From contig CP064989.1 of NCBI GenBank assembly GCA_016699875.1, forward strand, positions 392,788 to 456,787: a stretch of 64,000 nt of DNA, given 5' to 3'. The first letter of the stretch is position 1. Every line of letters starts with the position of its first letter. Both the position numbers and the translations under genes were made by a program. The notes below the pieces were generated by a model. That model was given only the letters and a program-made list of their open reading frames with translations, made no database searches and had not been told where the DNA came from. Positions 28,169-43,052 of this stretch are shown here, piece by piece. Source of the stretch: Candidatus Moraniibacteriota bacterium. GTDB taxonomy: Bacteria > Patescibacteriota > Minisyncoccia > Moranbacterales > UBA1568.

Positions 28169-28177
28169 AGAAGAACA

Positions 28178-29581: not shown

Positions 29582-29662
29582 AAGAAAAAGATAGAGCAAA
29601 ATAAAAAACCTCGAACCAAAACAGCGAGACATTCGCCGCAGCTTTCCGAGGCAAAAAGAATT

Positions 29663-30109
29663 CTAGTGGGAAATTTTCGCGTGCAGCACGCCCGAGTAGA
29701 AAGCGCGCAGGAACGGCCGAGAAAGAGCCGCCCTCGCATCGAATCGTTCCGGAGGGCGAAAGAGTGTCCGATGAAACTCAAAAAGCCGATTCCACTTGAA
29801 GAATAACTCTTTTCTCTGTCCAAAGTTCAGAAGAGTTGCTCCAAGAAGAACAAAAAAGACAACCGGTAACGACGATGAGAAAAAATCCCTCCACGAGGCA
29901 ATATGATCAAAGAGGCTCATACTCATCGTCCCATGTTCAGCATTCTGAGCGTGCACACCAAGAGAAAGACTGCCGCATGAATCATCCGCCGCGAGCGCAA
30001 GAAATTCATTCGAGCACACGCACGGTAAGGCAACCGAAAAAAAGAGGAAAACACCGACAAGAATGAGTGATCGATACATGGCGCACAGACAATATAAAGA
30101 TATTTCCAT
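29663..30109 (-). CDS. Small secreted/membrane Cys-containing hypothetical protein
   Basis: ATG at 30109: MEISLYCLCAMYRSLILVGVFLFFSVALPCVCSNEF (signal/TM, then Cys cluster) followed by a second hydrophobic segment. Adjacent to the copper genes. Confidence 0.4.
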   Translation of the reverse strand: MEISLYCLCAMYRSLILVGVFLFFSVALPCVCSNEFLALAADDSCGSLSLGVHAQNAEHGTMSMSLFDHIASWRDFFSSSLPVVFFVLLGATLLNFGQRKELFFKWNRLFEFHRTLFRPPERFDARAALSRPFLRAFYSGVLHAKISH

Positions 30110-30323
30110 TGTATTCCGTCCTTTTTGGAAAAACAAGCACCGACAAGTATGGCAATTCCCTTTCGTTTCAATGAAGAGTCCGACTGTGTTTGCGCGCAGA
30201 AAAAAATTAGTATAGAATTTACATAAGCGAAAGAAAAACAAAAAAGTGATTCTCCTTCGATCTTTTGTCGTCTCGAAAAAGAGAGGTCTGACACAGAGAG
30301 CGTTGCGAGAACACGCACGACAC

Positions 30324-31076
30324 ATGACAACCGATACCGAAACACCACAACCGGAAACCGACGCCGCCGGCGAAGATCGCGGACAAAAAATTCAGTCGCT
30401 CCGAGAAATGATCGCCAATGCCGAGCGAACTATGCAGAGTGCCAAGGCGATGCTTCTTCAGCTCGAGGGCAAGAAGCGTGTTGGCCGTCCGCGCAAGGTT
30501 GAAGAAATCGAAGACGGCACCGTCGTCCAAGGAACCTTCGACGGACAAGTGATGCAGGGGTCGGACGGCAAACAATATCCCGTCCCGGCGAATTACGCTT
30601 CAAAGTCAAAACTCGTTGAAGGAGATGTCCTCAAACTCACCATCACGCCGGACGGGTCGTTTATTTACAAGCAGATCGGTCCCGCCGAGCGTCGCCACGC
30701 CATTGGCGTCGTCATTCAGGATGATCGGGGAAATTTCATGGTTATGGCAGACGGACACCCATATCGCGTCCTTCTTGCTTCCATCACCTTCTTCAAGGCA
30801 AATCCCGGCGATGAAGTCGCCATTGTCTTTCCGCGAAGCGAAGGAGCTACGTGGGCATCCATAGAAAATGTCCTGCAAAAAGGAGCTCTCCACAGTGAAG
30901 CAAGCGTCGCGCAGAACATTTTCCCCAATACCGCTCCATCGCCACAGACCGCACCCAAAAACGATACCGAACTTCCGGAATCGCCAAAAGATGATATTCT
31001 CAGTGAGTGGGAGAAAGATTTCGCAGAGCTCAAGAGAAATAATGATGCAACGCCCGGAGAAGAACATTCAGAATAA
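30324..31076 (+). CDS. Hypothetical protein with an acidic N-terminus, a GRPRK (AT-hook-like) motif and a central beta-rich domain
   Basis: MTTDTETPQPETDAAGEDRGQKIQSLREMI...KKRVGRPRKVEEIEDGTVVQGTFDGQVMQGSDGKQYPVPANY...; no recognised catalytic motif. Confidence 0.45.
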   Translation: MTTDTETPQPETDAAGEDRGQKIQSLREMIANAERTMQSAKAMLLQLEGKKRVGRPRKVEEIEDGTVVQGTFDGQVMQGSDGKQYPVPANYASKSKLVEGDVLKLTITPDGSFIYKQIGPAERRHAIGVVIQDDRGNFMVMADGHPYRVLLASITFFKANPGDEVAIVFPRSEGATWASIENVLQKGALHSEASVAQNIFPNTAPSPQTAPKNDTELPESPKDDILSEWEKDFAELKRNNDATPGEEHSE

Positions 31077-31082
31077 GTAGCT

Positions 31083-31748
31083 GTGACCCATATCACCTCT
31101 ATGCAGCCGGAAATACCAGGGCAATCCCTCCACATACTCGAGAAGCGAGATCTTTTTTTTGCCGCCATCAACGGACTCTTCATCGGTATTTTCGCGCCGT
31201 TTATTTTCAGAAACCTCGGAACGGCGCTCCCGGTATCAATTCCGCTCTTCGCGCTTATCCTCGCACTCCTGTGTGTTATCGGCATCACGATTGGTTTCCT
31301 GCTCTCGAAGATTTCGCCGAAGCTCCGATTCTTTTTTCAACTCGCGAAGTTTGGCATTATCGGCGTCACCAATTTCATTGTTGATCTCGGCATCTTTAGT
31401 CTTCTCATCTGGGCCACACACATATCGACCGGCGGGAGCATCTTGCTTTTCAAAGTAGCGTCCGTCTCCATCGCGATCATCAATAGCTACATTTGGAACA
31501 AGTTCTGGTCATTCGAAGAAAAGCACACCGATGAAGCTACGGTGCGTCGGCAATTCTTTCAGTTCATTGCGGTTTCCATAGTCGGGTTAGTGCTCAATGC
31601 CGGCATCACGTATTCTCTTATCACTTTCGCCACCGGATTCATGGACGTCTCTCCGGAAACATGGGCGACAATTTCGAGCGCCATCGCCTCCGTCACTGTC
31701 CTCTCCTGGAATTTCATCGGGTACAAATTCTTCGTGTTCAAGCGATAG
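31083..31748 (+). CDS. GtrA-family membrane protein (polysaccharide-synthesis associated) with an N-terminal 2-TM extension
   Basis: C-terminal half FQLAKFGIIGVTNFIVDLGIFSLL...IINSYIWNKFWSF...SWNFIGYKFFVFK matches the GtrA-like 4-TM pattern. Confidence 0.6.
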   Translation: MTHITSMQPEIPGQSLHILEKRDLFFAAINGLFIGIFAPFIFRNLGTALPVSIPLFALILALLCVIGITIGFLLSKISPKLRFFFQLAKFGIIGVTNFIVDLGIFSLLIWATHISTGGSILLFKVASVSIAIINSYIWNKFWSFEEKHTDEATVRRQFFQFIAVSIVGLVLNAGITYSLITFATGFMDVSPETWATISSAIASVTVLSWNFIGYKFFVFKR

Positions 31749-31848
31749 GCAAGCCCTTCGCTCTCTGATATACTCAAAAGACAAGGGAATCTTGTCTTTT
31801 TTGTTTGCATCCGATGACTGCAACAGTTAAATCTCCCGCAAAACGGCT

Positions 31849-33474
31849 ATGGCAACCCTCTACCGAAAATACCGCCCCGAGCACTGGAGTGATGTTGCCG
31901 GGCAAGAGCATATTGTCACCACGCTGACCAACGCAATCATCGGCGATCTCCTCGCCCATGCTTATCTCTTCACCGGTCCCAGAGGCACCGGCAAAACCAC
32001 CGTCGCAAGACTCCTCGCCAAGTCCATCAACTGTACCAATCGCCGCAATGCCAAAGAGCCGTGCGATACCTGCGACAATTGCCGAGCGTTTTCTGAAGGG
32101 CGCGCTTTTGACATCATTGAAATAGACGGCGCTTCAAACAACAGTGTCGAAAATATCCGCGAACTCCGCGAAACAGTCAAGCTTCCGCCGGCAATCGGCG
32201 CACGAAAAATTTACATTATCGACGAAGTTCACATGCTCTCCGGCGGCGCCTGGAATGCCCTCCTCAAAACACTCGAGGAGCCGCCGACACATGTCGTATT
32301 CATTCTCGCCACCACCGAGCTGCACAAAATCCCCGCAACCATTTCTTCTCGTTGCCAGCGCTTCGATTTCAGTCGATTCCCGACCGCTGTCATCATCGAA
32401 AAACTTTCCCGCATCGCTCAGTCCGAAGGCATTACAATTGATGCTGACGCCCTCGAAATGATTGCTCTCTCTGCCGAAGGCGGCATGCGTGATGCCGAAA
32501 GCCTTCTCGCGCAGACAATCGCCCTCGAAGATAAACACATCACCGGATCCGAAGCCGCTTCCATCCTCGGTATAACCGAGCGAAAAACCGTCTTCGATAT
32601 CGTCGCCGCACTCGGCAATCGCGATCTCGACACAGCGATCCTTACACTCGAATCGCTCGCGCAAAAAGGCGTCGACTTCCGATCCTTCGCCGGAACGCTC
32701 ACACACTTCCTTCGCGAAGTTCTCTTCCGCAAACTTGGGAGTGTTGCCCAATCATCCCTCGCCGCGCAATCCTCCGCCGAAGAGAACGACACGATCGCAA
32801 CACTCGCCACGCAATTCTCATTTGCCGAGCTCGCCCGCCTCATGGAGCTCATCCACCATGCCCGCACGGAAATCCGACACGCCCCCATCCAGCAAGTCCC
32901 GCTCGAAATCGCCATGCTTGCCTTCATTTACCCGGAGGATATAGAGACACCCACATCACCCGCTCCCACATCACGCCCAGTCCCTCCACCCGCACCTGCC
33001 AAGCCATCCGTATCACCAAAGGAAGAATCACCATCGAAAGCCTCTTCTTTGACAGAGAAAACCGCTGCGACGACATCGGAAAAAACATCGCCTCATCAGA
33101 ATCCCGAGCCCGAGCATCGCGCGCCGGAAGCGCCAAGCGGCGCAAGCACATCATCTCCGCTGACACTTGCCATTATCCAAAGCAAATGGAAGCTCTTTCT
33201 TGAAGAGATAAAACGCCAAAATGCTTCCCTTTCCCTCTCCCTCTCCGGCAGCACGCCGCAGCTCTCCGAAAGTGGCGCGATCGGCGTGTCCGTGCGACAT
33301 GCTTTTCACAAAGAACGGCTCGAAAAACCCGAAAGCCGCTTGACCATCGAACAGGCACTTGCTACCATTTTCGGAACACCAGCCCGCCTCGCTATCGACG
33401 TTGTCGCTGAAGATCCAGCAGATCCTCTCCTCGACAGCGCCCTCAATATCCTCGGCGGCAAGGTGGTCAGTTAG
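31849..33474 (+). CDS. dnaX: DNA polymerase III subunits gamma/tau
   Basis: MATLYRKYRPEHWSDVAGQEHIV...FTGPRGTGKTTVARLLAKSINC (Walker A), zinc module CDTCDNC, SRC motif; Pro/Ser-rich linker; C-terminal domain. Confidence 0.92.
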   Translation: MATLYRKYRPEHWSDVAGQEHIVTTLTNAIIGDLLAHAYLFTGPRGTGKTTVARLLAKSINCTNRRNAKEPCDTCDNCRAFSEGRAFDIIEIDGASNNSVENIRELRETVKLPPAIGARKIYIIDEVHMLSGGAWNALLKTLEEPPTHVVFILATTELHKIPATISSRCQRFDFSRFPTAVIIEKLSRIAQSEGITIDADALEMIALSAEGGMRDAESLLAQTIALEDKHITGSEAASILGITERKTVFDIVAALGNRDLDTAILTLESLAQKGVDFRSFAGTLTHFLREVLFRKLGSVAQSSLAAQSSAEENDTIATLATQFSFAELARLMELIHHARTEIRHAPIQQVPLEIAMLAFIYPEDIETPTSPAPTSRPVPPPAPAKPSVSPKEESPSKASSLTEKTAATTSEKTSPHQNPEPEHRAPEAPSGASTSSPLTLAIIQSKWKLFLEEIKRQNASLSLSLSGSTPQLSESGAIGVSVRHAFHKERLEKPESRLTIEQALATIFGTPARLAIDVVAEDPADPLLDSALNILGGKVVS

Positions 33475-33511
33475 CGGATACACGACACGATTCACTCTTT
33501 GAAAATTTTCT

Positions 33512-33583
33512 TGGGGAGTAGCCAAGCGGTAAGGCAGGGGCCTTTGAAGCCCCCACGCGCAGGTTCGATCCCTGCCTCCCCAG
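33512..33583 (+). tRNA. tRNA-Gln (anticodon UUG)
   Basis: TGGGGAGTAGCCAAGCGGTAAGGCAGGGGCCTTTGAAGCCCCCACGCGCAGGTTCGATCCCTGCCTCCCCAG; U1-A72 pair and CUUUGAA anticodon loop as in bacterial tRNA-Gln. Confidence 0.88.
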
Positions 33584-33594
33584 CTGACAAATCT

Positions 33595-34056
33595 ATGAAT
33601 ATTCAAAATCTTGCTTGCTTTCTTAATGAAGCAAACAAAGAAACATATGCAAACAAGAATGCATCAAAGGCTACTCCCACACGCTTAGCTTCAGAAGATT
33701 ATCATTTTGAAAAAGGAAATATTATCTATCACGATACTTACTTTGGCGGTCGTGATTTTATCGGAGAAGAAATTGTATATGAAAGTAATAAGCCAGTATG
33801 GGGAGCAAATTACTTTGGATTTATCCTTAATAAAAATATAGACGAAAAGGAGGTCTATACTTTCCTTCGAGAAGCTCTGATGCAAAAATGCAATGATGTA
33901 ATCCCTGTTCGTGGTCCATCTTCATTTTCAAAGGACAATAATCGGTATACTTTTACGGTTGAGGGAAATCTTTCAAGCTTTAGCGGAACAGAAGAAATCT
34001 CATTCAACGGGACAATTGTTTATCGTTGTTTACTCCACGGAGGACTAATTGTTTAG
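33595..34056 (+). CDS. Hypothetical protein (first gene of the tRNA-Gln-adjacent AT-rich island)
   Basis: ATG at 33595 (MNIQNLACFLNEANKETYANK...YHDTYFGGRDFIGEEIVYESNKPVWGANYFGF...). Possibly DUF5680-like by motif memory only. Coding sequence is AT-rich versus flanks. The six-frame ORF start at 33499 overlaps the tRNA. Confidence 0.45.
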   Translation: MNIQNLACFLNEANKETYANKNASKATPTRLASEDYHFEKGNIIYHDTYFGGRDFIGEEIVYESNKPVWGANYFGFILNKNIDEKEVYTFLREALMQKCNDVIPVRGPSSFSKDNNRYTFTVEGNLSSFSGTEEISFNGTIVYRCLLHGGLIV

Positions 34057-34108
34057 AATCAGCCGAATTGTGTTTCCATGTCGTTCCAGAACGTCATCTG
34101 ATAAATTT

Positions 34109-34486
34109 ATGAAAACTATTGCTATCGGATGCAGCATGAAGTATCGCAGTTTAGTAAGAGAAACTGTAGAAGCGTTGACTGTTTTAAGACTAAAACCTAT
34201 CTTTCCTAATTTAGACTACAGCCATGAAAACGAAGATAAGGCAGATACTCCTGGAGAAAAGAAACGTTTGGCGCTAGAACATTACAAAGCCATTGATAAA
34301 GCTGATATAGTTTACTTGATTACTCCAAATGGCTACATGGGAACAAGTTGCAAATTAGAACTTGGCTATGCTCTTGCGAAAAACAAGACTATCTATTTTT
34401 CAGAACCAACGAACGATCCGGCATTGGATTGCTACGTAGAAAAATTTATCAGCATCGATTCCTTAGAAGAGTTTCTGGATAAATAA
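34109..34486 (+). CDS. Nucleoside 2-deoxyribosyltransferase-like protein
   Basis: ...AIDKADIVYLITPNGYMGTSCKLELGYALAKNKTIYFSEP fits the Nuc_deoxyrib_tr / DNPH1-like C-terminal signature (hydrophobic strand, G..D.GT..E.G.A.A..K). Confidence 0.55.
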   Translation: MKTIAIGCSMKYRSLVRETVEALTVLRLKPIFPNLDYSHENEDKADTPGEKKRLALEHYKAIDKADIVYLITPNGYMGTSCKLELGYALAKNKTIYFSEPTNDPALDCYVEKFISIDSLEEFLDK

Positions 34487-34532
34487 GTTCTCACTTCATC
34501 CCACAGCCCCAGAAACTCGTATGCTCCACACA

Positions 34533-34865
34533 ATGAAACTCAATCATAGTCCGTTTGAGAAAATTAGAAACGGAACTAAGGTTATTGAGATTAGATTGAA
34601 TGATAAGAAAAGAAAACTCCTCAAAGTCGGAGATGAGATTGAATTTAGACGAGTTGATGACGAACGAAAAAAGATTCTCACAAAGGTCCTCGATCTTTCC
34701 CTCTTTCCATCCTTTCAAAGGATGTTCGCCGCATTTCCGCCTCATGAATACGGGAGTCAGAGCGCAGAAGAATATACGCAGATGTACGAAGTTTACTCGC
34801 CAGAAAAAGAAAGAAAATTCGGCGTTCTAGCAATCAGGATTCAATTTCTTTCAGAGACAAAATAG
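34533..34865 (+). CDS. ASCH-domain protein
   Basis: MKLNHSPFEKIRNGTKVIEIRLNDKKRKLLKVGDEIEF (ASCH beta-barrel start, GxKxxExR pattern). Confidence 0.55.
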   Translation: MKLNHSPFEKIRNGTKVIEIRLNDKKRKLLKVGDEIEFRRVDDERKKILTKVLDLSLFPSFQRMFAAFPPHEYGSQSAEEYTQMYEVYSPEKERKFGVLAIRIQFLSETK

Positions 34866-34928
34866 ACTCACGCAGAAATTGAAAGCTTTTCTGGAATCAC
34901 AAAAAAATCGGTCGAATCCGAAAGCCTG

Positions 34929-35590
34929 AGAACCTGTTTACAATCTTCCGGTACACTGAGGACATAATCCTCAAACCAAAAGAACCATGTATCCAAGCGA
35001 CATAACCCGAGAACAATTCGAACACATCAGACCATTTCTCGAATCAACCAGGAAGAGAACCAAACCAAAGACACTTGATTCCTATGACGTATTCAACGCT
35101 CTGCTCTACATTCTGGTCACGGGTTGCCAATGGAGGGCACTTCCCAAGGATTATCCAAAATGGCAGAGTGTCTATCGACACTTCCTTGTCTGGAAGGAAC
35201 GAAAAAACAAACAGACAGAGAGTATGCTTGAGCAAGTCTTAAAAAAAATTGGTCGAACAAGAACGTATGAAAAATGGCAAACAATGCAAAACCAGTTTCT
35301 GCATCGTTGATGCTCAAAGTGTCAAGAATACAGATACGGCTCGAGAAAAAGGTTATGATGCAGGAAAAAAAGTTTCCGGTATCAAGCGACATATTCTCGT
35401 TGACACCAACGGATTGCCGCATGCGTTCACGGTAACCACTGCTAACGTCACTGATCGAAAGAGAAGTTTCTCCTGGCTGGAGAAATGCCGAAGGCTCTGG
35501 AAGAATTGCGAACGGACACTGGATTCGAGCTTACAGATGATGGTTTTAAGTTTTGATCGATTGTTGTTGAAAAGATTGTAAACAGGTTCT
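34929..35590 (+). mobile_element. Degenerate IS5-family insertion sequence (662 bp) with 19-bp perfect terminal inverted repeats
   Basis: Left end AGAACCTGTTTACAATCTT (34929-34947) and right end AAGATTGTAAACAGGTTCT (35572-35590) are exact reverse complements. Interior encodes an IS5/DUF4096-type transposase broken by frameshifts. Confidence 0.7.
34987..35560 (+). pseudogene. IS5-family (IS427/IS1031-like, DUF4096 N-domain) transposase, frameshifted and C-terminally truncated
   Basis: OrfA: MYPSDITREQFEHIRPFLE...YILVTGCQWRALPKDYPKWQSVYRHFLVWKE. OrfB in another frame: VDAQSVKNTDTAREKGYDAGKKVSGIKRHILVDTNGLPHAFTVTTANVTDRKRS. A third frame reads LEKMPKALEELRTDTGFELTDDGFKF then stops; the third catalytic (E) region is missing. 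Confidence 0.7.
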
Positions 35591-35602
35591 AAGAATAATT
35601 CC

Positions 35603-36175
35603 ATGAAACAGAAGGTACTCAAAACCAATCTCGAGTCACTCAAATACCTCCGTTTCATTTCGTGGGGAGAAGTGTTTGACACTTGGCGAGAACTCGAAGC
35701 ATGGCAAGAATTATGGAAAGCACACTGGACCGAGCGCGGCTTTGAATCCTGGGACGAGTGGCGGCACGCCTATGCCAAACCGTTACATCCCGAAGCACTC
35801 GACTGGCAGCTTTATCATCTGACTCACCCTCTCGCCGACAGCCCCCTCCTCTATGGCACCCCGACCACGGGATGGATCAAGAAAGCATACCAAGGAAAGA
35901 TCACAAAACAATTGAAAGATCTCGTCCGTCTTCCCATTATTTCCCAAAACGAAAAGATTCGAGATATCCAACGAGCATTCCCCGAAGAGACCCAACTAAC
36001 CGGCATCGTCCACAACGGGAATGTCATCCTCATTGAAGGCATGCACCGCGCCGCAGCGCTCGCCAGTTGGAACTCAGACATCCCTTTTGCGGGAAAAGTC
36101 ACCCTCGCGCTCGCCGAATGGACAGAAGCTGTTCCGGCACTTGGCGGAAATTACAAGATGCCTTCCCGTGAATAA
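35603..36175 (+). CDS. Hypothetical protein with a ParB/Srx-like (ParBc) motif
   Basis: ...TQLTGIVHNGNVILIEGMHRAAALASW resembles the ParB N-terminal / sulfiredoxin-fold GxHR..A signature. Trp-rich N-terminal half. Confidence 0.4.
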   Translation: MKQKVLKTNLESLKYLRFISWGEVFDTWRELEAWQELWKAHWTERGFESWDEWRHAYAKPLHPEALDWQLYHLTHPLADSPLLYGTPTTGWIKKAYQGKITKQLKDLVRLPIISQNEKIRDIQRAFPEETQLTGIVHNGNVILIEGMHRAAALASWNSDIPFAGKVTLALAEWTEAVPALGGNYKMPSRE

Positions 36176-36198
36176 CAACAAGCCGAGAATCTGACATT

Positions 36199-36705
36199 AT
36201 GAAAATAACGAATTACCAAGGGGCTCCCTCCGATATTTCTTGTCTCGGATGCGCAAGAGAGGAAGGAAAAATAGAACGGGTAGGAGACATATTCACAACT
36301 GCCTATTTTGATGTTCACCAAGATTTTGAGATTCCCATACCGGGATTCATTATTATCTCTTCGCGACGACACATCCGAAGCATTGATGAGCTCACTAATG
36401 AGGAAAAGATTGATTTCATAAACACAGTGACATCCACTCGCACAGCAATGCGAAAAACTCTCGGCATAGACACGGTATATCTCATCCAAGAAGAAGATTC
36501 AGCGCATCACTTTCACCTCTGGATATTCCCTCGATACCTCTGGATGTCCGAGAAATTTGGAACGAAGACACCGTCACTCCGACCAATTATGGAGTACGCT
36601 CGAGAAAATATGAAAACAAAAGAAAACCTTGAAAAGGTGGAACAGGCTATCGAAAAACTGCAACAATACTTGAAAACCTCGGACAAGAATGACTACTCCA
36701 TATGA
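36199..36705 (+). CDS. HIT-family (histidine triad-like) nucleotide hydrolase/transferase
   Basis: CLGCAREEGKIERVGDIFTTAYFDVHQD...GFIIISSRRHIRSIDELTNEE...SAHHFHLWIFPR (His-triad variant). Confidence 0.55.
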   Translation: MKITNYQGAPSDISCLGCAREEGKIERVGDIFTTAYFDVHQDFEIPIPGFIIISSRRHIRSIDELTNEEKIDFINTVTSTRTAMRKTLGIDTVYLIQEEDSAHHFHLWIFPRYLWMSEKFGTKTPSLRPIMEYARENMKTKENLEKVEQAIEKLQQYLKTSDKNDYSI

Positions 36706-37364
36706 ACCCACAAAACAAGAGTATTATTATTTTTGATTTCGATGGCACACTGGCCGACACGGAAGAAATACTTTTTCGCGCATTCAACGGTCTCGCCGAT
36801 CAATATCACTACCCGCCAATTACCAAAGAAGAAATCTTGAAACTCGAAGATAAAGACATCAAGAAATTTATTTCGACACACGCAAAGATCCCCCTCTGGA
36901 AACTCTGGAGATTTACGCAACGTCTCAGAGAGGAATACAAGCTCTATATCGACACCGTACAGCTCTTTCCCGATATCAAGGAAGTTCTCGATGCCCTGCA
37001 AAAACAAGGGTGCGTAAGAGGAATCGTTTCGTCCAATTCAACTGATACCATATCGAAAATCCTCAGAAGATTCGATATATCGGTCGACTTTATCATAACC
37101 AGTTCCCTGTTCGGAAAGTCAGGCGCGCTGAATGCTCTCGCAAGAAAACACCGTTTCGATAAAAGTAAAATACTCTATATCGGCGACGAGGTGCGCGATG
37201 TAGAAGCCTGCCAGAAGAGTCACATCGACATGCTCGCCGTCACTTGGGGATTAAACAGTAAAGCCACTCTCCAAAAAGCAGACATAGTCACAGTCGACTT
37301 TCCAAGGCAAATCCTTGAATCGCTGGGAATAGATACCACACTAAACAAAACAAATAGCATATGA
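36702..37364 (+). CDS. HAD-superfamily hydrolase (subfamily IA-like phosphatase)
   Basis: IIIFDFDGTLADTEE (motif I DxDGT), SSNS (motif II), K...GDEVRD (motifs III/IV). Start overlaps the HIT gene stop. Confidence 0.8.
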   Translation: MNPQNKSIIIFDFDGTLADTEEILFRAFNGLADQYHYPPITKEEILKLEDKDIKKFISTHAKIPLWKLWRFTQRLREEYKLYIDTVQLFPDIKEVLDALQKQGCVRGIVSSNSTDTISKILRRFDISVDFIITSSLFGKSGALNALARKHRFDKSKILYIGDEVRDVEACQKSHIDMLAVTWGLNSKATLQKADIVTVDFPRQILESLGIDTTLNKTNSI

Positions 37365-37428
37365 AAACGGCAATTATTATTCATGGGCAGCGCGCTCACT
37401 GAGCAATGTAGCGCAAACTAAACTAACT

Positions 37429-37833
37429 ATGAACATACACAAAGCAGCTGGCATCATCATACGAGACAGAAATCTACTGGTAGAGAAATCGAAAAATAAA
37501 GACTTCTTCATCTCTCCAGGAGGATCCATTGAACCAGGAGAAACTGCCAAGCAGGCTCTCGCAAGAGAGTTGATGGAGGAATTCCAGATAATTGTCGAGG
37601 AGGGTGATATGGAGTCATTTGGAACATTTTCTGCAGCAGCCGCAGGAAACGAATCAAAGACAGTTATCATGGAAGTTTTTATGATTAAAGCTTTCCGAGG
37701 CGAACCGACGCCTGATAGCGAAGTAGAAAAAATAGCATGGATAAACTCCGTCATTCCCCAAGAAATGAAAGTCGGATCAATATTCGAACATCAAGTTATC
37801 CCTCTCCTCAAGAAACGCGACCTTATAGATTAA
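37429..37833 (+). CDS. NUDIX hydrolase
   Basis: GGSIEPGETAKQALARELMEEFQI = Nudix box GX5EX7REUXEEXGU. Confidence 0.8.
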   Translation: MNIHKAAGIIIRDRNLLVEKSKNKDFFISPGGSIEPGETAKQALARELMEEFQIIVEEGDMESFGTFSAAAAGNESKTVIMEVFMIKAFRGEPTPDSEVEKIAWINSVIPQEMKVGSIFEHQVIPLLKKRDLID

Positions 37834-37955
37834 ACACTTGGTTGAGCAAGAAATAAGGGTGTCATTTTCCGGACACTCTTTCTTATTGGAGCTGTATCCT
37901 TGCCAATAGCCCATTGCTCCCGTATACTCCCAAGGAATTTTCAAGCTCATCCGCT

Positions 37956-39068
37956 ATGCATGACAGCCTATTCCTCCACTGCCTCGGAAAAATATCCGGT
38001 GTCGGCGCCGAAAAACTTCGGAAAATCGCCGCTCACTTCGAGACATTCGAATCGGCATGGGACGCGCCACTCGAAGAATTCATCCGCGCTGGCATTCCAA
38101 GCAAACTTGCCGAGACAATCGTTCACACTCGCAAACACATCTCACCGGAAAGAGAATTCGAAACTCTGGAACAGCACCGGGTTCGCCTCATCTCCAGAGA
38201 AAGCGAGAATTACCCCGCTCTCCTCGCAGAAATCCCCAATCCGCCGGCACTACTCTATCTTCGTGGAGACATTGATTTCAACAGACGTCCCATGATCACA
38301 CTCGTCGGTACCCGGAAACCCACCGAATACGGTATCGGCATCGCGAGAGAATTTGCGAGCGAGCTCGCAAAAAGCGGCATCGCAGTGATCTCAGGTATGG
38401 CGCTCGGCATCGACAAAGCAGCGCACCAGGGCGCCCTCGATGGCGGAGGCGTCACGATTGCCGTTCTCGGCAACGGACTCGACGACGCCTCGATTTCGCC
38501 GCGCACCCACCTCGATCTCGCTCACACCATCAGCCTTCATGGCGCGCTGCTCTCCGACTACCCGCCGGGAACCGGCGCTTCCGAAGGCACCTTCCCCGCG
38601 CGCAATCGCATCATGGCAGGATTGTCGCTCGGCACCGTCGTCATCGAAGCATCGGAAAAAAGCGGCACGCTCATCACGGCAAACCTCGCACTCGATTTCA
38701 ATCGCGAAGTCTTCGCCGTTCCGGGATCAATCTATTCCGAGAACTCCCGCGGACCGCACGCGCTCATCAAGAGAGGAGCTATTCTCACTGCAAGTCTCTC
38801 AGATATTCTCGATGCCCTCCCGCTTTCGAAAGAGCGCGAAAATCGCGAAATACTTTCCGAACAAACCGAATCCGATCAGGAAAATATCTCCGCTGATGAA
38901 GAACGTCTTCTCAAAATATTGGGAAGTGATACCATGCACATTGACGCGCTCATCAAACACTCTACACTGGAAACATCGAACGCACTCTCCGCACTCGCCT
39001 TTCTCGAAATGAAAGGCTTGGTAAAAAACATCGGCAACATGCACTATATTCGAACATATCGAGTATAA
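37956..39068 (+). CDS. dprA: DNA processing protein DprA (Smf)
   Basis: ITLVGTRKPTEYGIGIAREFASELAKSGIAVISGMALGIDKAAHQGALDGGGVTIAVLGNGLD (Rossmann DprA core) plus C-terminal winged helix. Confidence 0.88.
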   Translation: MHDSLFLHCLGKISGVGAEKLRKIAAHFETFESAWDAPLEEFIRAGIPSKLAETIVHTRKHISPEREFETLEQHRVRLISRESENYPALLAEIPNPPALLYLRGDIDFNRRPMITLVGTRKPTEYGIGIAREFASELAKSGIAVISGMALGIDKAAHQGALDGGGVTIAVLGNGLDDASISPRTHLDLAHTISLHGALLSDYPPGTGASEGTFPARNRIMAGLSLGTVVIEASEKSGTLITANLALDFNREVFAVPGSIYSENSRGPHALIKRGAILTASLSDILDALPLSKERENREILSEQTESDQENISADEERLLKILGSDTMHIDALIKHSTLETSNALSALAFLEMKGLVKNIGNMHYIRTYRV

Positions 39069-39151
39069 ATTCAAAGGGATCGCCTCCAACACAATGCTCG
39101 AGGAATCCTTTTAGAGCACACACTATATTATTTGAAATCCCCTCATTTTCT

Positions 39152-41329
39152 ATGAAACTTGTTATCGTTGAGTCACCATCGAAGGCGAAAACCATCCAGA
39201 AATACCTTGGAAAGGAATACCAGGTTGTCGCCTCCGTGGGACACATACGCGATCTCCCAAAAAGCAATAAAAAGGCGATCGATGTCAAAGGCGGATTCAT
39301 CCCGCATTATGAAGTAACCCCCGGCAAAGAAAATATCGTCTCAACGCTATCGCGCCTCACCAAAAAGGCAGGCGAAGTCTACCTCGCCACCGACCCCGAC
39401 CGCGAAGGCGAAGCTATTGCCTGGCACATTGCCGAAGCCTGCGGATTAAAGCGCCCGAAGCGCGTCGCCTTCCACGAAATCACGAGAAACGCTGTTACCG
39501 AAGGCATACGCCACCCGCGATCCATAGACCAGAATCTCCGTCGAGCCCAAGAAGCACGGCGTGTTTTGGATCGGCTTGTGGGATATGACCTCTCGGGACT
39601 CATCTGGAAAAAACTCCGCTACGGTCTCTCTGCCGGCCGCGTCCAATCCCCCGCACTCCGTATCTTGGTCGAGAAAGAACGGGAAATAGCCGCCTTTGTC
39701 CCTGAAGACTTCTGGGTTATCACCGCACATGCCGACTGCCCCGATAAAACACCGATCACGCTCACCTGTTCCAAGGAACCGCGCGAAGAACATGAAGTCG
39801 ATGACATTCTGAAAAGAGCGCGCGCCGGTTCCTGGTCCGTACTCGATGTCAAAGAATCCGAAGCATCGCGGGCACCCTCTCCACCATTCACTACTTCAAC
39901 CCTTCAGCAGTCCGCGAGTTCCCGACTCGGATTCTCACCCGCAAACACCATGCGAATCGCACAGAAGCTCTACGAATCGGGATTCATCACCTACATGCGA
40001 ACCGACAGCGTCACCATTAGCAAAGACGCGCAGAAAACAGCGACCGATTTCATTCTCAAAAAGTTCGGCGACCAATTCTCCGAGCCTCGCATCTATACCA
40101 CGAAGTCAAAGAATGCTCAGGAGGCACACGAGGCTATTCGTCCGACAGATCCCTCGCGCGAGAAAGCCGGCGCAAGCCCCGACCAACAGAAACTCTACAC
40201 GCTCATATTTCGCCGTACCATCGCCTCGCAAATGGCGAGCGCCCGCATGCTTCGCACCAAAGTCATTGCCAATATCGCCGATCGGTCGATTCCCGACTTC
40301 GTCGCCAATGGCTCGCGACTTCTCTTCCCGGGCTGGCTCGAGATTGATCCCTTTGCACGGCAAGACGATATGGATGTGCCAAAACTCTCTCCGGGCAGCA
40401 CTCTCAGACTTCGCTCGGTCGATTCCGAAAAGAAGCAAACCGAGCCACCACGCCGTTACTCCGAAGCGGGACTCGTCAAAGAACTTGAGAAGCGCGGTAT
40501 CGGAAGACCAAGTACATACGCTTCGATTATCAAGACGCTTCTTGACAGAGACTACGCCACCAAAGATGGCCGGGCGCTCCATGCCACCGAAACCGGAGAA
40601 GCCGTGAGCTCGTTCCTCGAAAAGCACTTCGCAGAAATCGTGAGCGACACCTTCACAGCCGATATGGAACAAGAGCTCGACGATATCTCAAACGGCGAAC
40701 GCGACTATGAAAAAACTCTCAAGAATTTCTACACGCCATTCTCCAAAGAGGTGAAATCCAAAGACAAACTAGAGAAAATCAACAACCTTGGCGACGCACC
40801 CAAAGACCTCCTCTGCCCCGAGTGCGGCAGCAGCATGGTTCGGAAACTCGGCAAAAACGGCGTTTTCTACAGCTGCTCGCGATTCCCGGACTGCAAAGGC
40901 GCACGCATGAAAGACGGCTCACTCATCCCTGAAGACAAAGATGTTGGCGAGCCCTGTCCCGAATGCGGCAGCCCACTTGTCGAGAAGATGGGGCGGTTCG
41001 GACCATTTATCGCCTGCAGCACCTATCCGAAATGCAAATTTATCAAAGGCTCCGCCACACAGACAACCGGCGTCACGTGCCCCGTCTGTCAAAAAGGTGA
41101 GATGGTCGAAAAACGCGGACGCTTCGGCACATTCTACAGCTGTTCCAACTATCCCGACTGCAAGCACGCCATCAAAGCACGTCCGACCGGCAAGCGCTGC
41201 TCATTCATCCGCGACGGCAAACCCTGTGACGCTCTCATGATGGAAGGAACCAAAACCATCCCCGAACGCTGTTCCGACCGCACCTGCCCCAATCATAACC
41301 CTCATCTCCTCGAGAAGAAAAAGAAGTAA
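39152..41329 (+). CDS. topA: DNA topoisomerase I with C-terminal zinc-ribbon repeats
   Basis: MKLVIVESPSKAKTIQKYLG (Toprim), active-site Tyr region, and four CxxC...CxxC C-terminal zinc ribbons (CPECGS, CPECGSPL, CPVCQKG, CSNYPDC). Confidence 0.92.
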   Translation: MKLVIVESPSKAKTIQKYLGKEYQVVASVGHIRDLPKSNKKAIDVKGGFIPHYEVTPGKENIVSTLSRLTKKAGEVYLATDPDREGEAIAWHIAEACGLKRPKRVAFHEITRNAVTEGIRHPRSIDQNLRRAQEARRVLDRLVGYDLSGLIWKKLRYGLSAGRVQSPALRILVEKEREIAAFVPEDFWVITAHADCPDKTPITLTCSKEPREEHEVDDILKRARAGSWSVLDVKESEASRAPSPPFTTSTLQQSASSRLGFSPANTMRIAQKLYESGFITYMRTDSVTISKDAQKTATDFILKKFGDQFSEPRIYTTKSKNAQEAHEAIRPTDPSREKAGASPDQQKLYTLIFRRTIASQMASARMLRTKVIANIADRSIPDFVANGSRLLFPGWLEIDPFARQDDMDVPKLSPGSTLRLRSVDSEKKQTEPPRRYSEAGLVKELEKRGIGRPSTYASIIKTLLDRDYATKDGRALHATETGEAVSSFLEKHFAEIVSDTFTADMEQELDDISNGERDYEKTLKNFYTPFSKEVKSKDKLEKINNLGDAPKDLLCPECGSSMVRKLGKNGVFYSCSRFPDCKGARMKDGSLIPEDKDVGEPCPECGSPLVEKMGRFGPFIACSTYPKCKFIKGSATQTTGVTCPVCQKGEMVEKRGRFGTFYSCSNYPDCKHAIKARPTGKRCSFIRDGKPCDALMMEGTKTIPERCSDRTCPNHNPHLLEKKKK

Positions 41330-41337
41330 CTCTCTCC

Positions 41338-42327
41338 TCACTCAATACTTGTTCTTCCATCCGAAGAAAGTCTCAGAGGGAATTCCCGAAATGATATCGA
41401 ATTATCCGGAGCAATCGAAGCCTCGACCAAGAGACCCCTCATCGTTTCCGAGCTGAAGTATTGATCAAAAATGAAATTGCCAAGAGAATAATAGATTGTC
41501 TTGCCGCGATAGACCTCGCGCTCTTGAACGACATGCGGATGTGAGCCGATTATCATATCGGCCCCCCGATCGACAAAGAGATGCGCGAGACGCTTTTCTT
41601 CATCGGTTGCCGGAGCATACTCAGCACCCCAATGCGTATAGACAACCAGTATATCTACCGCCGAATGGAGGCGATCGATATCGGAAAGAGCGCGAGACTC
41701 GGCATCCGCGTAAAACTGATTGTAGTTTACAAATCCTATTCTTTTCCCGCGAATAATAGCGTCATATGAGCGAAATGAATCATCTGTCGGGTCGCCAAAA
41801 AATTTCACGCCGGCATCTCGCAAAAATTGCCTCGTTTCAACAAGTCCCGACTCGCCGAAGTTGAGAATGTGATTATTTCCAATATTCACAAGATGGATAT
41901 TCGCATGAGCGAGCACGTCTGCCCATTTGGAATTGAAGGTAAAGACGTAATTCCTCGCTTCGCCGATCGCTGATCCCGCACTCTCTGATTCGCTCGAGGT
42001 AATCGGTCCTTCAAGATTTGCCACCACGAGATCGGCTGACGAGAGCTGAGCTCGAATGCCATCAAATATTGCCTCCTTCCCCATCCTATCCGATTGCGTC
42101 CGAATATACCGGTCGAACATCATATCGCCCGCAAAAAGAAGGCGGATTGGAGACTGAATATCGGTATCACCAAACACTTCCTGACTGCTAATTTCCTCGT
42201 TTTTAATGGGGAAAAATTTCATTTCCATAAAAGATTGCTCGCGAAATTTCGCACGAAAGAGAAAAAACAAGAATCCCGAAAGCACGAGAAGCAACACACC
42301 TGATGCAAGAAGAAGTCTGGCCTTCAT
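41338..42327 (-). CDS. CapA-family (PGA_cap) membrane-anchored metallophosphatase
   Basis: N-terminal TM; GDMMFDR, ADLVVANLE, NHILNFG, VYTHWGAEY, GADMIIGSHPHVVQ, SLGNFIFDQ, the canonical CapA/calcineurin-like motifs. Confidence 0.75.
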   Translation of the reverse strand: MKARLLLASGVLLLVLSGFLFFLFRAKFREQSFMEMKFFPIKNEEISSQEVFGDTDIQSPIRLLFAGDMMFDRYIRTQSDRMGKEAIFDGIRAQLSSADLVVANLEGPITSSESESAGSAIGEARNYVFTFNSKWADVLAHANIHLVNIGNNHILNFGESGLVETRQFLRDAGVKFFGDPTDDSFRSYDAIIRGKRIGFVNYNQFYADAESRALSDIDRLHSAVDILVVYTHWGAEYAPATDEEKRLAHLFVDRGADMIIGSHPHVVQEREVYRGKTIYYSLGNFIFDQYFSSETMRGLLVEASIAPDNSISFREFPLRLSSDGRTSIE

Positions 42328-42479
42328 AACAAAAAATCAACAAGCTAAAAGTATTCCGTCAATCTACCACGATCCCCGAACACGTCAATGGCGACATTGA
42401 CACAACAGAAGCAGTGCCTCTGTGCATTTCGGAAATATGGTATATACTGTGAGCATCCATACATTTCCAAAAAGAATCC

Positions 42480-42896
42480 ATGAAATTCTCTCACACATCG
42501 GCTTATTGCGAGAATTGCGGAGAAAATATTTCCGCCGAGATTGCATTCTGCCGAAGTTGCGGAACCGCTCTTTCTGAAAATCAAGTAAAAAGAAACATCG
42601 AACAATCCCGAGCAGGAAAGAATATTCCGAGAGCTCCCTTAGGAAGCGATCTTTTTTCGCGAAAGATTCCCGGAGCTATCCTTGTCGGCTTCTTGGAATT
42701 CCTTTTTGCAATCGGGATCTTCGTTGTCTCCTTCCTCATAAGTATGAATTTCTTCCCGGATATAGCCGATGGGAAAACAGTCCGCCTTTCAACCTACTTT
42801 ATTGTCATGATGACCACATTTGTCGCTGGACTCACTCTGGGCTCATATATATCAAGAAAATTCCGAGAACGCTACCCGAAAGCATTCGAACAGTGA
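42480..42896 (+). CDS. Zinc-ribbon-containing membrane protein
   Basis: CENCGENISAEIAFCRSCGTAL followed by two TM helices. Confidence 0.5.
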   Translation: MKFSHTSAYCENCGENISAEIAFCRSCGTALSENQVKRNIEQSRAGKNIPRAPLGSDLFSRKIPGAILVGFLEFLFAIGIFVVSFLISMNFFPDIADGKTVRLSTYFIVMMTTFVAGLTLGSYISRKFRERYPKAFEQ

Positions 42897-43052
42897 GAAA
42901 CCGCCAGACTCAAGCAAAAAAGGAACGTGCCCGGTAAGCCTGCATACGGGCTGTTTTTTATTCACAGACATTCCAAAAACATGTCATGAGCAGAGTCAAA
43001 AAAGGGTGGTATTTTGTCTCAAGTGGGATATACTGGATGAAAAACATGCCCT

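What the first reader, a model, noticed from the sequence alone, without database searches (positions are those of the whole stretch)
33584..37840. AT-rich island immediately 3' of tRNA-Gln, packed with small nucleotide-acting enzymes and a ParB-like protein: candidate undescribed nucleotide-centred (possibly anti-phage) module
Directly after tRNA-Gln(UUG) the base composition turns AT-rich. Seven short same-strand genes follow, interrupted by a decayed IS: an unknown 153-aa protein, a nucleoside 2-deoxyribosyltransferase/DNPH1-like protein, an ASCH-domain protein, the degenerate IS5 element, a ParB/Srx-like protein, a HIT-family protein, a HAD phosphatase and a NUDIX hydrolase. The core genes dnaX and dprA-topA flank the block. 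Each domain on its own is a housekeeping-type fold. Together they amount to N-glycosidic cleavage, phosphoramidase, phosphatase and pyrophosphatase activities plus two nucleic-acid-binding folds. Collecting these in a tRNA-adjacent mobile island is the kind of arrangement seen in nucleotide-depletion or modified-nucleotide-sanitising defence systems. I do not recognise the combination as any named system.
Basis: partly seen in the sequence, partly recalled or inferred. Interest (0 to 1): 0.7.

Follow-up and report, generated by a model that had tools for sequence, protein, structure and literature searches.

The report
Patchwork of nucleotide-cleaning genes beside tRNA-Gln
The AT-rich gene cluster after tRNA-Gln in this tiny-genome (Moraniibacteriota) bacterium is real, but it is a patchwork of old and newly inserted small nucleotide-salvage or "house-cleaning" genes at a variable chromosome spot, not one mobile anti-phage system.

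Summary
tRNA-Gln(UUG) at 33512-33584 is followed by the lowest-GC 4.2 kb of the window (42.3% vs 50.0%). It carries DUF5680, an NDT-like gene, ASCH, an internally deleted IS5, a 190-aa ParB/Srx-fold protein (p190), a HIT variant (HxHxW), HAD and a MutT-like NUDIX, flanked by dnaX and dprA-topA.

It is not one island. The closest relative (L010) is collinear at 72-85% nt. It keeps p190, HIT, HAD and NUDIX, diverged like the core genes and equally low in GC. It lacks DUF5680-NDT-ASCH-IS5 (33599-35591) and carries SET, a P-loop kinase-like gene, a second NUDIX, a serine hydrolase and another NDT-like gene instead.

p190 has host-like composition and directly follows tRNA-Gln in other Patescibacteria. 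There is no integrase and no repeat of the tRNA 3' end. The only PADLOC hit is a generic NUDIX match.

The seven-gene set recurs nowhere. Only sub-pairs recur: HIT-HAD, HIT-p190, ASCH-NDT, DUF5680 with dCMP deaminase, and NUDIX enriched beside p190 (odds ratio 6.8, p=6e-4).

Best reading: a gene-by-gene variable slot holding nucleotide salvage and sanitation enzymes in a bacterium that scavenges nucleotides. Interest is modest. The uncharacterised p190 family is the most novel part.

The parts
31849..33474 (+). dnaX (DNA polymerase III tau/gamma), conserved left flank
   Evidence: Pfam DNA_pol3_delta2 3e-44 and DNA_pol3_gamma3. 79% aa identity to L010.
33512..33584 (+). tRNA-Gln(UUG); the compositional break begins just after it
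   Evidence: ARAGORN and Rfam tRNA at 63 bits. 94% nt identity to L010 together with the next 14 nt. No second copy of its 3' end in the window.
33599..35591 (+). Block with no counterpart in the closest relative L010. It holds DUF5680, the NDT-like gene, ASCH and the IS5 remnant. L010 has HIT-SET-AAA_18-NUDIX at this position.
   Evidence: blastn of window against L010. The non-IS part has 37.4% GC, the lowest of 1135 windows, and tetranucleotide z=4.8.
33595..34056 (+). DUF5680 protein (153 aa), probably a small-molecule-binding protein
34109..34486 (+). Nucleoside 2-deoxyribosyltransferase/DNPH1-like protein (125 aa)
   Evidence: PF05014 at 27.6 bits, gathering score 28.8. The GTSCKLELGYA motif aligns with the ELGYA motif of solved NDTs. 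233 homologues of at least 61% identity across the CPR; the best is 90% and sits in a different context.
34521..34865 (+). ASCH-domain protein (114 aa)
   Evidence: PF04266 at 34.8 bits. phrog_19935 1.5e-24. Closest solved structures are PH0355 and PF0455. An ASCH-NDT pair with a 4-nt overlap is also present in L072.
34926..35593 (+). Internally deleted IS5-family element. 22-nt inverted repeats at 34926-34947 and 35572-35593; ORF A 34987-35310; ORF B 35249-35581.
   Evidence: Inverted repeat I1, 95% complementary. DUF4096 and the N-terminal third of DDE_Tnp_1; NF033580 positions 1-88 and 84-154 of 258. Matches IS5 transposase genes on plasmids, where 523 query bases span about 708 subject bases.
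35603..36175 (+). p190: uncharacterised ParB/Srx-fold protein with an invariant EGMHR(A) motif. Native gene and ancestral neighbour of tRNA-Gln.
36199..36705 (+). HIT-superfamily protein with an HxHxW variant of the histidine triad
   Evidence: PF01230 at 19 bits, below the gathering score. Profile against PDB HIT proteins: 1y23 5.8e-5, with SHHFHIWVFPRY aligned to FHYHMHIIPRY. Orthologues in L010 (66%) and L011 (68%). Its stop overlaps the HAD start by 4 nt.
36702..37364 (+). HAD-IA phosphatase (Gph/PpaX-like)
   Evidence: HAD_2 3e-32 with a DFDGTL motif. All NCBIfam equivalogs below cut-off. 72% to L010 and 65% to L058, next to HIT in both L058 and L059.
37429..37833 (+). MutT-like NUDIX hydrolase (134 aa)
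   Evidence: PF00293 at 52.5 bits. MutT and pyrimidine dNTP diphosphatase models below cut-off. PADLOC PDC-S07 at 54 bits, about the same score as the Pfam NUDIX domain match. 90% to L010. Terminator-like hairpin at 37855-37880.
37914..41329 (+). dprA (37914-39068) and topA (39152-41329), conserved right flank
   Evidence: DNA_processg_A 3e-72 and Topoisom_bac 3e-123. 84% and 95% aa identity to L010.

Best explanation
The region is a composite, gene-by-gene variable slot in the chromosome of a Candidatus Moraniibacteriota (CPR/Patescibacteria) bacterium. It lies between dnaX/tRNA-Gln and dprA-topA and has three layers.

(1) Ancestral backbone. This is tRNA-Gln followed directly by p190, a 190-aa ParB/Srx-fold protein with a GxxRxxA-type motif (EGMHRAAA). 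I infer that p190 binds a nucleoside triphosphate and acts as a phosphotransferase or NTPase.

(2) An older accessory set. It comprises a HIT variant (HxHxW), a HAD-IA phosphatase translationally coupled to the HIT gene, and a MutT-like NUDIX. All three are shared with the congeneric genome L010 and were inherited vertically since that split. Inferred chemistry:
- NUDIX turns aberrant or surplus (d)NTP/NDP-X into (d)NMP.
- HIT hydrolyses nucleotidyl adducts (NMP-X, ApnA) to NMP.
- HAD dephosphorylates NMP or sugar phosphates.

(3) A lineage-specific 2.0-kb low-GC insertion between tRNA-Gln and p190. It carries DUF5680, a DNPH1/NDT-like N-glycosidase or transferase (catalytic-Glu motif retained) and an ASCH protein, next to an internally deleted IS5.

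The genes arrived and left individually by recombination at a hotspot, not through an integrase-borne island. Together they serve salvage and sanitation of scavenged nucleotides in an organism of a group that generally cannot make nucleotides de novo. They do not form a dedicated anti-phage system.

Shown: gene identities, composition, the orthology and indel pattern, and the recurrent sub-pairs. Inferred: all enzymatic substrates, the p190 activity, and the physiological role.
For: Identity of the organism.

Comparison with L010. The window is collinear with L010 over 26130-45524 at 72-85% nt, except for four indels inside the slot. HIT, p190, HAD and NUDIX are 66, 75, 72 and 90% identical between the two genomes, against 79-95% for the core genes. 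Their L010 orthologues are equally low in GC: HIT 0.40, HAD 0.45, NUDIX 0.405. L010 has a different cargo at the same spots: SET, AAA_18, NUDIX-199, Ser_hydrolase and a second NDT-like gene that is 24% identical.

tRNA-Gln and p190. tRNA-Gln lies directly upstream of p190 in four other lineages. In the window, L010, L020 and L026 it is separated by different inserts of 0.9-2.6 kb.

Composition is heterogeneous.

No island machinery. There is no integrase, no repeat of the tRNA 3' end, and only an IS5 remnant.

No defence signature: no PADLOC hits except a generic NUDIX match.

Recurrent sub-pairs:
- HIT-HAD in the window, L058, L059, L062 and L010.
- NUDIX-HIT-p190 in L011.
- NUDIX within +-2 genes of p190 in 9 of 158 genes, against 5 of 569 farther away; odds ratio 6.8, p=6e-4.
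- Maf, NT5C, MGMT and HAD around p190 in L076.
- ASCH-NDT in L072.
- DUF5680 overlapping a dCMP deaminase gene in L052 and L055.

Fold and motifs.

Background. CPR bacteria often cannot synthesise nucleotides and rely on salvage (PMC7304191). The NDT-fold enzymes DNPH1 and MilB are nucleotide N-glycosidases (PMC10603095, PMC4081090). Some ASCH proteins process N4-acetylcytidine (PMC6972931).
Against: - No enzyme was assayed. HIT and NDT score below Pfam's gathering thresholds.
- The HAD and NUDIX subfamilies reach no NCBIfam equivalog cut-off, so substrates are open.
- The NUDIX genes beside p190 are mutually no more than about 35% identical. The enrichment may therefore reflect co-residence in accessory neighbourhoods rather than a shared pathway.
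- Only one close relative (L010) defines which genes are old and which are new.
- Neighbourhood sampling for NDT and DUF5680 was three contexts each.
- The absence of known defence hits does not exclude an undescribed system.
Confidence: 0.6

Rival explanations
1. p190, the HxHxW HIT protein, HAD and NUDIX are a dedicated Patescibacteria-specific pathway anchored next to tRNA-Gln. For example, an NTP-dependent ParB/Srx-fold kinase or NTPase could have its nucleotidyl or phospho products processed by HIT, NUDIX and HAD. The low-GC left block would be an unrelated insertion.
For: The four families co-occur in three genomes with 66-100% p190 identity, despite a shuffled gene order: the window, L010, and L011 = L067. 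In L011 the fourth gene is only a 149-aa ORF with a DIDGV motif and no Pfam hit. The HIT stop overlaps the HAD start. NUDIX is enriched beside p190 across homologues of 34-75% identity. Maf lies directly after p190 in L076.
Against: The three genomes are the closest relatives, so shared ancestry can explain the linkage. Most p190 loci lack HIT and HAD. Most HIT loci lack p190. The neighbouring NUDIX genes are not orthologous to each other. Rare p190 fusions are to CoA-binding, acylphosphatase and alpha/beta-hydrolase domains, not to NUDIX or HIT.
Confidence: 0.2
2. A single tRNA-integrated mobile island encoding an undescribed nucleotide-depletion or modified-nucleotide anti-phage system.
Against: Composition is not uniform, and p190 is native. 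Four of the seven genes are orthologous in L010 with core-like divergence. There is no integrase or att repeat. The combination is not conserved anywhere sampled. The other six proteins have no PADLOC hit. p190, NDT and DUF5680 relatives are absent from viral contigs. Neighbouring genes are core replication and repair genes.
Confidence: 0.05
3. No functional relation at all. The slot is simply a recombination hotspot or permissive site where any small, dispensable, low-GC gene accumulates. The nucleotide theme only reflects how common NUDIX, HAD and HIT-type genes are among small accessory genes of CPR genomes.
For: L010 carries SET and serine-hydrolase genes in the same slot. L026 has an EamA transporter and L020 an unknown ORF between tRNA-Gln and p190. 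The window holds two more NUDIX genes elsewhere. Other low-GC accessory genes are scattered through the window.
Against: There is local enrichment of NUDIX within +-2 genes of p190 relative to the rest of the same loci. HIT-HAD adjacency recurs, including non-orthologous HADs. Overlapping start and stop codons (HIT/HAD here, ASCH/NDT in L072, deaminase/DUF5680 in L052 and L055) indicate co-expression of pairs.
Confidence: 0.15

Closest known systems
Nucleotide-pool 'house-cleaning' and salvage enzymes (MutT-type NUDIX, Hint/Fhit-type HIT, HAD nucleotidases, Maf, DNPH1/Rcl)
   Same: The same superfamilies are present, with catalytic motifs retained: the REx2EE Nudix box, DFDGT in HAD, the middle His of the triad, and the ELGYA Glu of the NDT fold. 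The proteins are small and single-domain. The organism belongs to a group dependent on scavenged nucleotides (PMC7304191).
   Different: No protein reaches an equivalog-level model. The HIT third histidine is Trp. The genes are clustered beside a ParB/Srx-fold protein and tRNA-Gln, which is not a described arrangement as far as my searches show.
tRNA-associated genomic islands / integrative elements
   Same: The deviant, AT-rich DNA starts right after a tRNA gene. It is partly absent from the nearest relative and contains an IS remnant.
   Different: There is no integrase, no duplicated tRNA 3' end and no uniform composition. Content changes gene by gene at four separate points. The first native gene (p190) lies in the middle of the 'island'.
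ParB/Srx superfamily (sulfiredoxin, ParB/KorB/Noc N-domains, SerK/SbnI kinases, DUF262 of GmrSD/BrxU/SspE)
   Same: p190's best structural matches are exclusively these proteins. It has a GxxRxxA-type motif (G146-M-H-R149-A-A-A) at a strand-helix junction.
   Different: Sequence profiles detect no family member. Met replaces the sulfiredoxin Cys of GCHR (motif recalled from memory). There is no HTH, no dimerisation domain and no nuclease partner. p190 has a unique Trp-rich N-terminal half, stands alone at about 185 aa, and the titled loci recovered are mostly Patescibacteria MAGs.
Nucleotide-targeting anti-phage systems (dCTP deaminase/dGTPase depletion, Thoeris/CBASS effectors with NDT-like or NUDIX domains, PADLOC PDC-S07)
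   Same: They use similar enzyme folds acting on nucleotides. There is one generic NUDIX hit to PDC-S07.
   Different: No sensor, signalling or effector architecture is present. There are no hits for the other six proteins, no conserved co-occurrence, and no defence-island neighbours.
IS5 family (IS427/IS1031-like, DUF4096 + DDE_Tnp_1 with a frameshift site)
   Same: It has terminal inverted repeats, two ORFs in different frames separated by an A8 run, and matches NF033580.
   Different: About the last 100 residues of the transposase are missing, so the element is 668 bp and is presumed immobile.

Membership tests
tRNA-integrated genomic island | Lies immediately 3' of a tRNA gene | tested here: met
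   The tRNA-Gln gene ends at 33584 and the first ORF starts at 33595.
tRNA-integrated genomic island | Integrase/recombinase gene inside the element | tested here: not met
   No such ORF or Pfam hit in 33585-37840. The only mobility gene is a truncated IS5 transposase.
tRNA-integrated genomic island | Direct repeat of the tRNA 3' end (attL/attR) at the far border | tested here: not met
   The 23-nt 3' end of tRNA-Gln occurs once in 64 kb with up to 3 mismatches allowed. No suitable repeat was found.
tRNA-integrated genomic island | Whole block absent from close relatives, with uniform foreign composition | tested here: not met
   Only 33599-35591 is absent from L010. p190, HIT, HAD and NUDIX are orthologous there. 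GC ranges from 35% to 52% between genes.
Known or candidate anti-phage defence system (PADLOC-DB v2) | Component proteins match defence-system models and co-occur as a set | tested here: not met
   8 of the 9 proteins/ORFs scanned (6 of the 7 island proteins) have no hit at E<=0.01. NUDIX matches PDC-S07 at 54 bits, close to its Pfam NUDIX domain score of 52.5 bits. The set was found in no other locus.
ParB/Srx superfamily (p190) | ParB/Srx core fold | tested here: met
ParB/Srx superfamily (p190) | GxxR(xxA) phosphate-binding motif | tested here: met
   E145-G-M-H-R149 is invariant and followed by A-x-A in 29 homologues. The correspondence to ParB GERRxRA and Srx GCHR rests on my recall of those motifs.
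Sulfiredoxin proper | Catalytic Cys in the FGGCHR motif | tested here: not met
   The position before H148 is an invariant Met. The motif is recalled from the literature and was not aligned residue by residue here.
Chromosome/plasmid partition ParB | HTH DNA-binding domain and C-terminal dimerisation domain; parA/parS partners | tested here: not met
   The protein is 190 aa with no ParBc or HTH Pfam hit. No parA gene is nearby.
HIT superfamily | Histidine triad HxHxHxx and HIT fold | tested here: inconclusive
   Pfam gives 19 bits against a gathering score of 21.5. The profile hits solved HIT proteins at E=5.8e-5, and the motif aligns as H-x-H-x-W: the first two His are kept and the third is Trp.
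Nucleoside 2-deoxyribosyltransferase / DNPH1 family (PF05014) | Family HMM above threshold; catalytic Glu in the (T/S)xxElGyA motif | tested here: inconclusive
   27.6 bits against a gathering score of 28.8. Most homologues carry precomputed PF05014. The profile against solved NDTs gives only E about 0.05, but it aligns GTSCKLELGYA with GTGLGMELGYA.
NUDIX hydrolases | Nudix box GX5EX7REUXEEXGU and family HMM | tested here: met
   PF00293 at 52.5 bits. The box reads GGSIEPGETAKQALARELMEEFQI, with REx2EE intact and the last G replaced by Q (sequence). MutT equivalog cut-offs are not reached.
HAD-IA phosphatases | Motif I DxDGT and family HMM | tested here: met
   HAD_2 at 112.6 bits and TIGR01549 HAD-SF-IA-v1 above cut-off. 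The DFDGTL motif is at residues 12-17.
YqfB-type ASCH N4-acylcytidine amidohydrolases | Catalytic Lys/Thr/Glu triad of YqfB | not tested
   Only ASCH domain membership was shown. The closest solved structures are the uncharacterised PH0355 and PF0455. No alignment to YqfB was made.
IS5 family insertion sequence | Terminal inverted repeats plus a complete DDE transposase | tested here: not met
   Inverted repeats are present. The transposase covers only positions 1-154 of 258 of NF033580 and scores below its cut-off. It is a remnant.

The most novel reading that the evidence does not exclude
p190 defines an undescribed ParB/Srx-fold enzyme family found mainly in Patescibacteria (EGMHR motif, Trp-rich N-terminal half). 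It is kept directly downstream of tRNA-Gln and works with neighbouring NUDIX, HIT(HxHxW) and HAD enzymes as a dedicated nucleotide-processing or nucleotide-quality-control pathway, or even as a tRNA-Gln-linked function. The variable slot around it would then be a specialised 'nucleotide-scavenging toolbox' locus of CPR bacteria.
Probability: 0.2. Interest if true: 0.55.

Novelty: new member of a known kind. Interest (0 to 1): 0.3.

Why it matters
The case shows that a striking AT-rich, tRNA-adjacent run of nucleotide-acting genes can be a layered mix of native, old-accessory and newly inserted genes rather than a defence island.

For CPR biology it marks a hotspot, from dnaX/tRNA-Gln to dprA-topA, where small salvage and house-cleaning genes are swapped one at a time. 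These are genes likely to matter for organisms that live on scavenged nucleotides.

It also gives three concrete uncharacterised targets with testable partners:
- the p190 ParB/Srx-fold family;
- the HxHxW HIT variant coupled to a HAD phosphatase;
- DUF5680, which pairs with dCMP deaminase.

Tried and rejected
- Exact-sequence look-ups of p190 and DUF5680 failed. The homologue search nevertheless found both at 100% identity.
- A sequence profile of p190 against PDB gave only a chance hit to a COMM domain, E=0.74.
- Foldseek against PDB was not significant.
- The afdb50 library was unavailable.
- The repeat search and a direct search for the tRNA-Gln 3' end found no att-like repeat.
- Rfam found nothing but the tRNA in 31-41 kb.
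- The promoter and terminator scan was not above shuffled expectation. Only the hairpin after NUDIX and a promoter-like site across the IS right end were noted.
- Viral-contig scans for p190, NDT and DUF5680 found no relatives. These scans are pattern-seeded, so distant viral homologues could be missed. ASCH does match a phage family.
- The literature had nothing on DUF5680 function or on a ParB/Srx-NUDIX-HIT association.
- I considered that the low GC of HIT, HAD and NUDIX marks recent transfer. I rejected this because the L010 orthologues have the same low GC and core-like divergence.
- I considered that the NUDIX genes beside p190 are one orthologous partner. I rejected this because they are no more than about 35% identical to each other.
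- I considered L011's 149-aa ORF to be a HAD because of its DIDGV motif. Pfam does not confirm it.

Full report
**What is there**

The window comes from a Candidatus Moraniibacteriota (CPR/Patescibacteria) assembly. The 190-aa protein at 35603-36175 is identical to IPK84_02165 on a 1.09-Mb contig.

tRNA-Gln(UUG) lies at 33512-33584. Seven same-strand genes follow:
- DUF5680, 33595-34056, Pfam 1e-32.
- A nucleoside 2-deoxyribosyltransferase-like protein, 34109-34486. PF05014 scores 27.6 bits, just under the 28.8-bit cut-off.
- ASCH, 34521-34865.
- A Pfam-less 190-aa protein, here called p190.
- A weak HIT match, 36199-36705, at 19 bits against a cut-off of 21.5.
- A HAD-IA phosphatase, 36702-37364.
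- A MutT-like NUDIX, 37429-37833.

Between ASCH and p190 lies a 668-bp IS5-family remnant with 22-nt inverted repeats at 34926-34947 and 35572-35593. Its two ORFs cover only positions 1-154 of the 258-position IS5 transposase model. IS5 copies on plasmids are about 185 bp longer over the matched part.

dnaX, dprA and topA flank the block.

**Sharpening the weak domain calls**

- HIT. A profile of eight homologues hits solved HIT proteins (1y23, E=5.8e-5). It aligns SHHFHIWVFPRY with FHYHMHIIPRY. The first two histidines of the triad are kept and the third is tryptophan.
- NDT-like. The family profile hits solved deoxyribosyltransferases only at E about 0.05. It does align GTSCKLELGYA with their GT..ELGYA segment, which holds the catalytic Glu.

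**Composition**

The 4.2-kb block is the lowest-GC stretch of its size in the window (42.3% vs 50.0%; 0 of 1017 other windows as low). It is also the most deviant in tetranucleotides (z=5.1).

The signal is not uniform:
- DUF5680-NDT-ASCH has 37.4% GC (z=4.8).
- p190 has 51.3% GC and is indistinguishable from the genome (z=-0.7).
- HIT-HAD-NUDIX has 42.8% GC (z=1.6).

**Comparative evidence**

A scan of species-representative genomes with the p190 alignment returned 42 loci.

The closest is L010. Its record is titled Bdellovibrionales, but it is collinear with the window at 72-85% nt over 19 kb. Its order is:

dnaX, tRNA-Gln, HIT, SET, AAA_18, NUDIX(199 aa), p190, HAD, Ser_hydrolase, NUDIX(134 aa), dprA, a 149-aa NDT-like gene, topA.

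Three points follow:
- p190, HIT, HAD and NUDIX are orthologous (75, 66, 72 and 90% aa). Their divergence is like that of the core genes (79-95%), and the L010 orthologues of HIT, HAD and NUDIX show the same low GC (0.40-0.45). They are old residents, not a recent import.
- Window 33599-35591 (DUF5680, NDT, ASCH, IS5) has no counterpart in L010. L010 has four genes that the window lacks, plus a distant NDT paralogue between dprA and topA.
- The two genomes differ by four separate indels and one relocation (HIT) within 6 kb.

**tRNA-Gln and p190**

tRNA-Gln is immediately (0-40 nt) upstream of p190 in four other lineages. One of them, L001, has a CUG anticodon and a different upstream gene.

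In the window, L010, L020 and L026 the two are separated by different inserts of 0.9-2.6 kb.

So tRNA-Gln followed by p190 is the ancestral arrangement, and the gap between them is a recurrent insertion point.

No integrase, no copy of the tRNA 3' end and no other att-like repeat exists.

**Is the gene set a unit?**

The full combination was found nowhere. Sub-pairs do recur:
- HIT with HAD. Their stop and start overlap here. They are adjacent or near in L058 (HAD 65% identical), in L059 (a HAD only 24% identical), in L062 and in L010.
- A tight same-strand run of ORF-NUDIX-HIT-p190 in L011/L067.
- ASCH overlapping NDT in L072.
- DUF5680 overlapping the end of a dCMP deaminase gene by 4 nt in two different contexts, L052 and L055. 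It is never with NDT or ASCH.

In a census of the two genes on each side of p190 in 37 non-redundant loci, NUDIX was the commonest Pfam family (8 of 144 genes). With an internal control, NUDIX genes make up 9 of 158 genes within +-2 positions of p190 against 5 of 569 farther away (odds ratio 6.8, Fisher p=6e-4). These NUDIX proteins are no more than about 35% identical to each other.

Another p190 locus (L076) has Maf immediately downstream and NT5C, MGMT and HAD nearby. L004 has Cdd1 and a cytidine-deaminase-like gene.

The nucleotide theme is therefore real around p190, at superfamily rather than orthologue level.

**Defence?**

PADLOC gave no hit for six of the seven proteins. The NUDIX hit to candidate PDC-S07 (54 bits) is close to its Pfam NUDIX domain score of 52.5 bits.

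PHROGs matched only ASCH, HAD and NUDIX families. Viral-contig scans found no relatives of p190, NDT or DUF5680.

The neighbours are replication and repair core genes. Nothing resembles a sensor-effector architecture.

**Interpretation**

The best-supported reading is a layered, gene-by-gene variable slot:
1. A native tRNA-Gln/p190 backbone.
2. An older accessory trio, HIT(HxHxW)-HAD-NUDIX.
3. A lineage-specific low-GC insertion (DUF5680, NDT-like, ASCH) next to a dead IS5.

CPR bacteria often cannot synthesise nucleotides and rely on salvage (PMC7304191).

Several precedents make salvage and sanitation of scavenged nucleotides the most economical function, although none of these activities was tested here:
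- NDT-fold enzymes include the nucleotide sanitiser DNPH1 and the hmCMP N-glycosidase MilB (PMC10603095, PMC4081090).
- Some ASCH proteins hydrolyse N4-acetylcytidine (PMC6972931).
- NUDIX, HIT, HAD and Maf are classic house-cleaning folds (established knowledge).

A dedicated p190-HIT-HAD-NUDIX pathway remains possible (about 0.2). A single mobile anti-phage island is unlikely (about 0.05).

**Verdict**

The finding is a new member of a known kind: an accessory nucleotide-metabolism cluster at a tRNA-adjacent hotspot. Interest is modest. The uncharacterised p190 family and its attachment to tRNA-Gln are the most novel elements.

Noticed in passing
window 33512-36175; L001 7899-8570; L004 7923-8558; L016; L024: A p190 homologue starts 0-40 nt after tRNA-Gln in several lineages. 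In L001 the tRNA has a CUG anticodon and a different upstream gene (GIY-YIG). The adjacency outlasts rearrangement of everything around it, which suggests co-transcription or a functional tie to tRNA-Gln.
   Followed up: partly
L052 5229-6462; L055 5219-6462; L056; L057: The DUF5680 gene overlaps by 4 nt the end of a ~150-aa dCMP_cyt_deam_1/MafB19-deam gene, which is preceded by a 95-107-aa ORF. This occurs in two different contexts: behind an HTH gene plus an AAA_15/AAA_21 ATPase gene in L052, and behind NDK in L055. It looks like a conserved three-gene cassette of unknown role.
   Followed up: partly
window 48056-48526 and 48562-49197 (- strand): Two further NUDIX genes lie side by side 10 kb downstream. 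That makes three NUDIX genes in 64 kb of this small genome.
   Followed up: no
window 35567-35596: A sigma-70-like site (TTGAAA-18-AAGAAT) spans the right end of the IS5 remnant and points into p190, whose ATG is 9 nt beyond the inverted repeat. It could be an IS-derived outward promoter. This is a consensus match only.
   Followed up: no
window 34923-34928 and 35591-35596; 35242-35249: The TNA-type triplets flanking the IS5 remnant differ (TGA on the left, TAA on the right). That would fit decay or an IS-mediated rearrangement joining the low-GC block to p190. An A8 run separates ORF A from ORF B, the usual frameshift site of this IS group.
   Followed up: no
L010 (CAYQPQ010000010.1): The record is titled 'uncultured Bdellovibrionales' but is collinear with the Moraniibacteriota window at 72-85% nt over about 19 kb, with topA 95% aa identical. 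The bin label looks wrong. Several other p190 loci carry similarly unlikely labels (Micavibrio, Lutibacter, Gammaproteobacteria).
   Followed up: partly
window 9663-10211 (- strand): A low-GC (0.44) AAA_33/Zeta_toxin-like P-loop kinase gene lies next to a 1074-aa gene. It is the same kind of small kinase-like gene that L010 carries inside the tRNA-Gln slot.
   Followed up: no
window 58990-62669 (- strand); also 20467-21635: There are other low-GC patches. One is a 401-aa gene with GC 0.43 and GC3 0.35 at the head of a run of genes with GC 0.46-0.47 (one looks glycosyltransferase-like by sequence, not checked with Pfam). Another is a 0.37-0.45 GC stretch around 20.5-21.6 kb. Compositional mosaicism is not confined to the finding.
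   Followed up: no
L064/L065/L066/L068 5983-6501: The HIT homologue is split into two ORFs (90 and 73 aa), so it looks like a pseudogene. It sits beside a pair of small ORFs that look by eye like a BrnT/BrnA toxin-antitoxin pair (no family search was run on them).
   Followed up: no
P0167, P0169, P0300 (p190 homologues): Rare fusions of the p190 domain to CoA_binding_2, acylphosphatase and alpha/beta-hydrolase domains. They may be real Rosetta-stone hints (phospho/acyl chemistry) or gene-calling read-throughs.
   Followed up: partly
window 15337-16029 (- strand): A cluster of five tRNA genes (Glu, Trp, Thr, Tyr, Thr).
   Followed up: no
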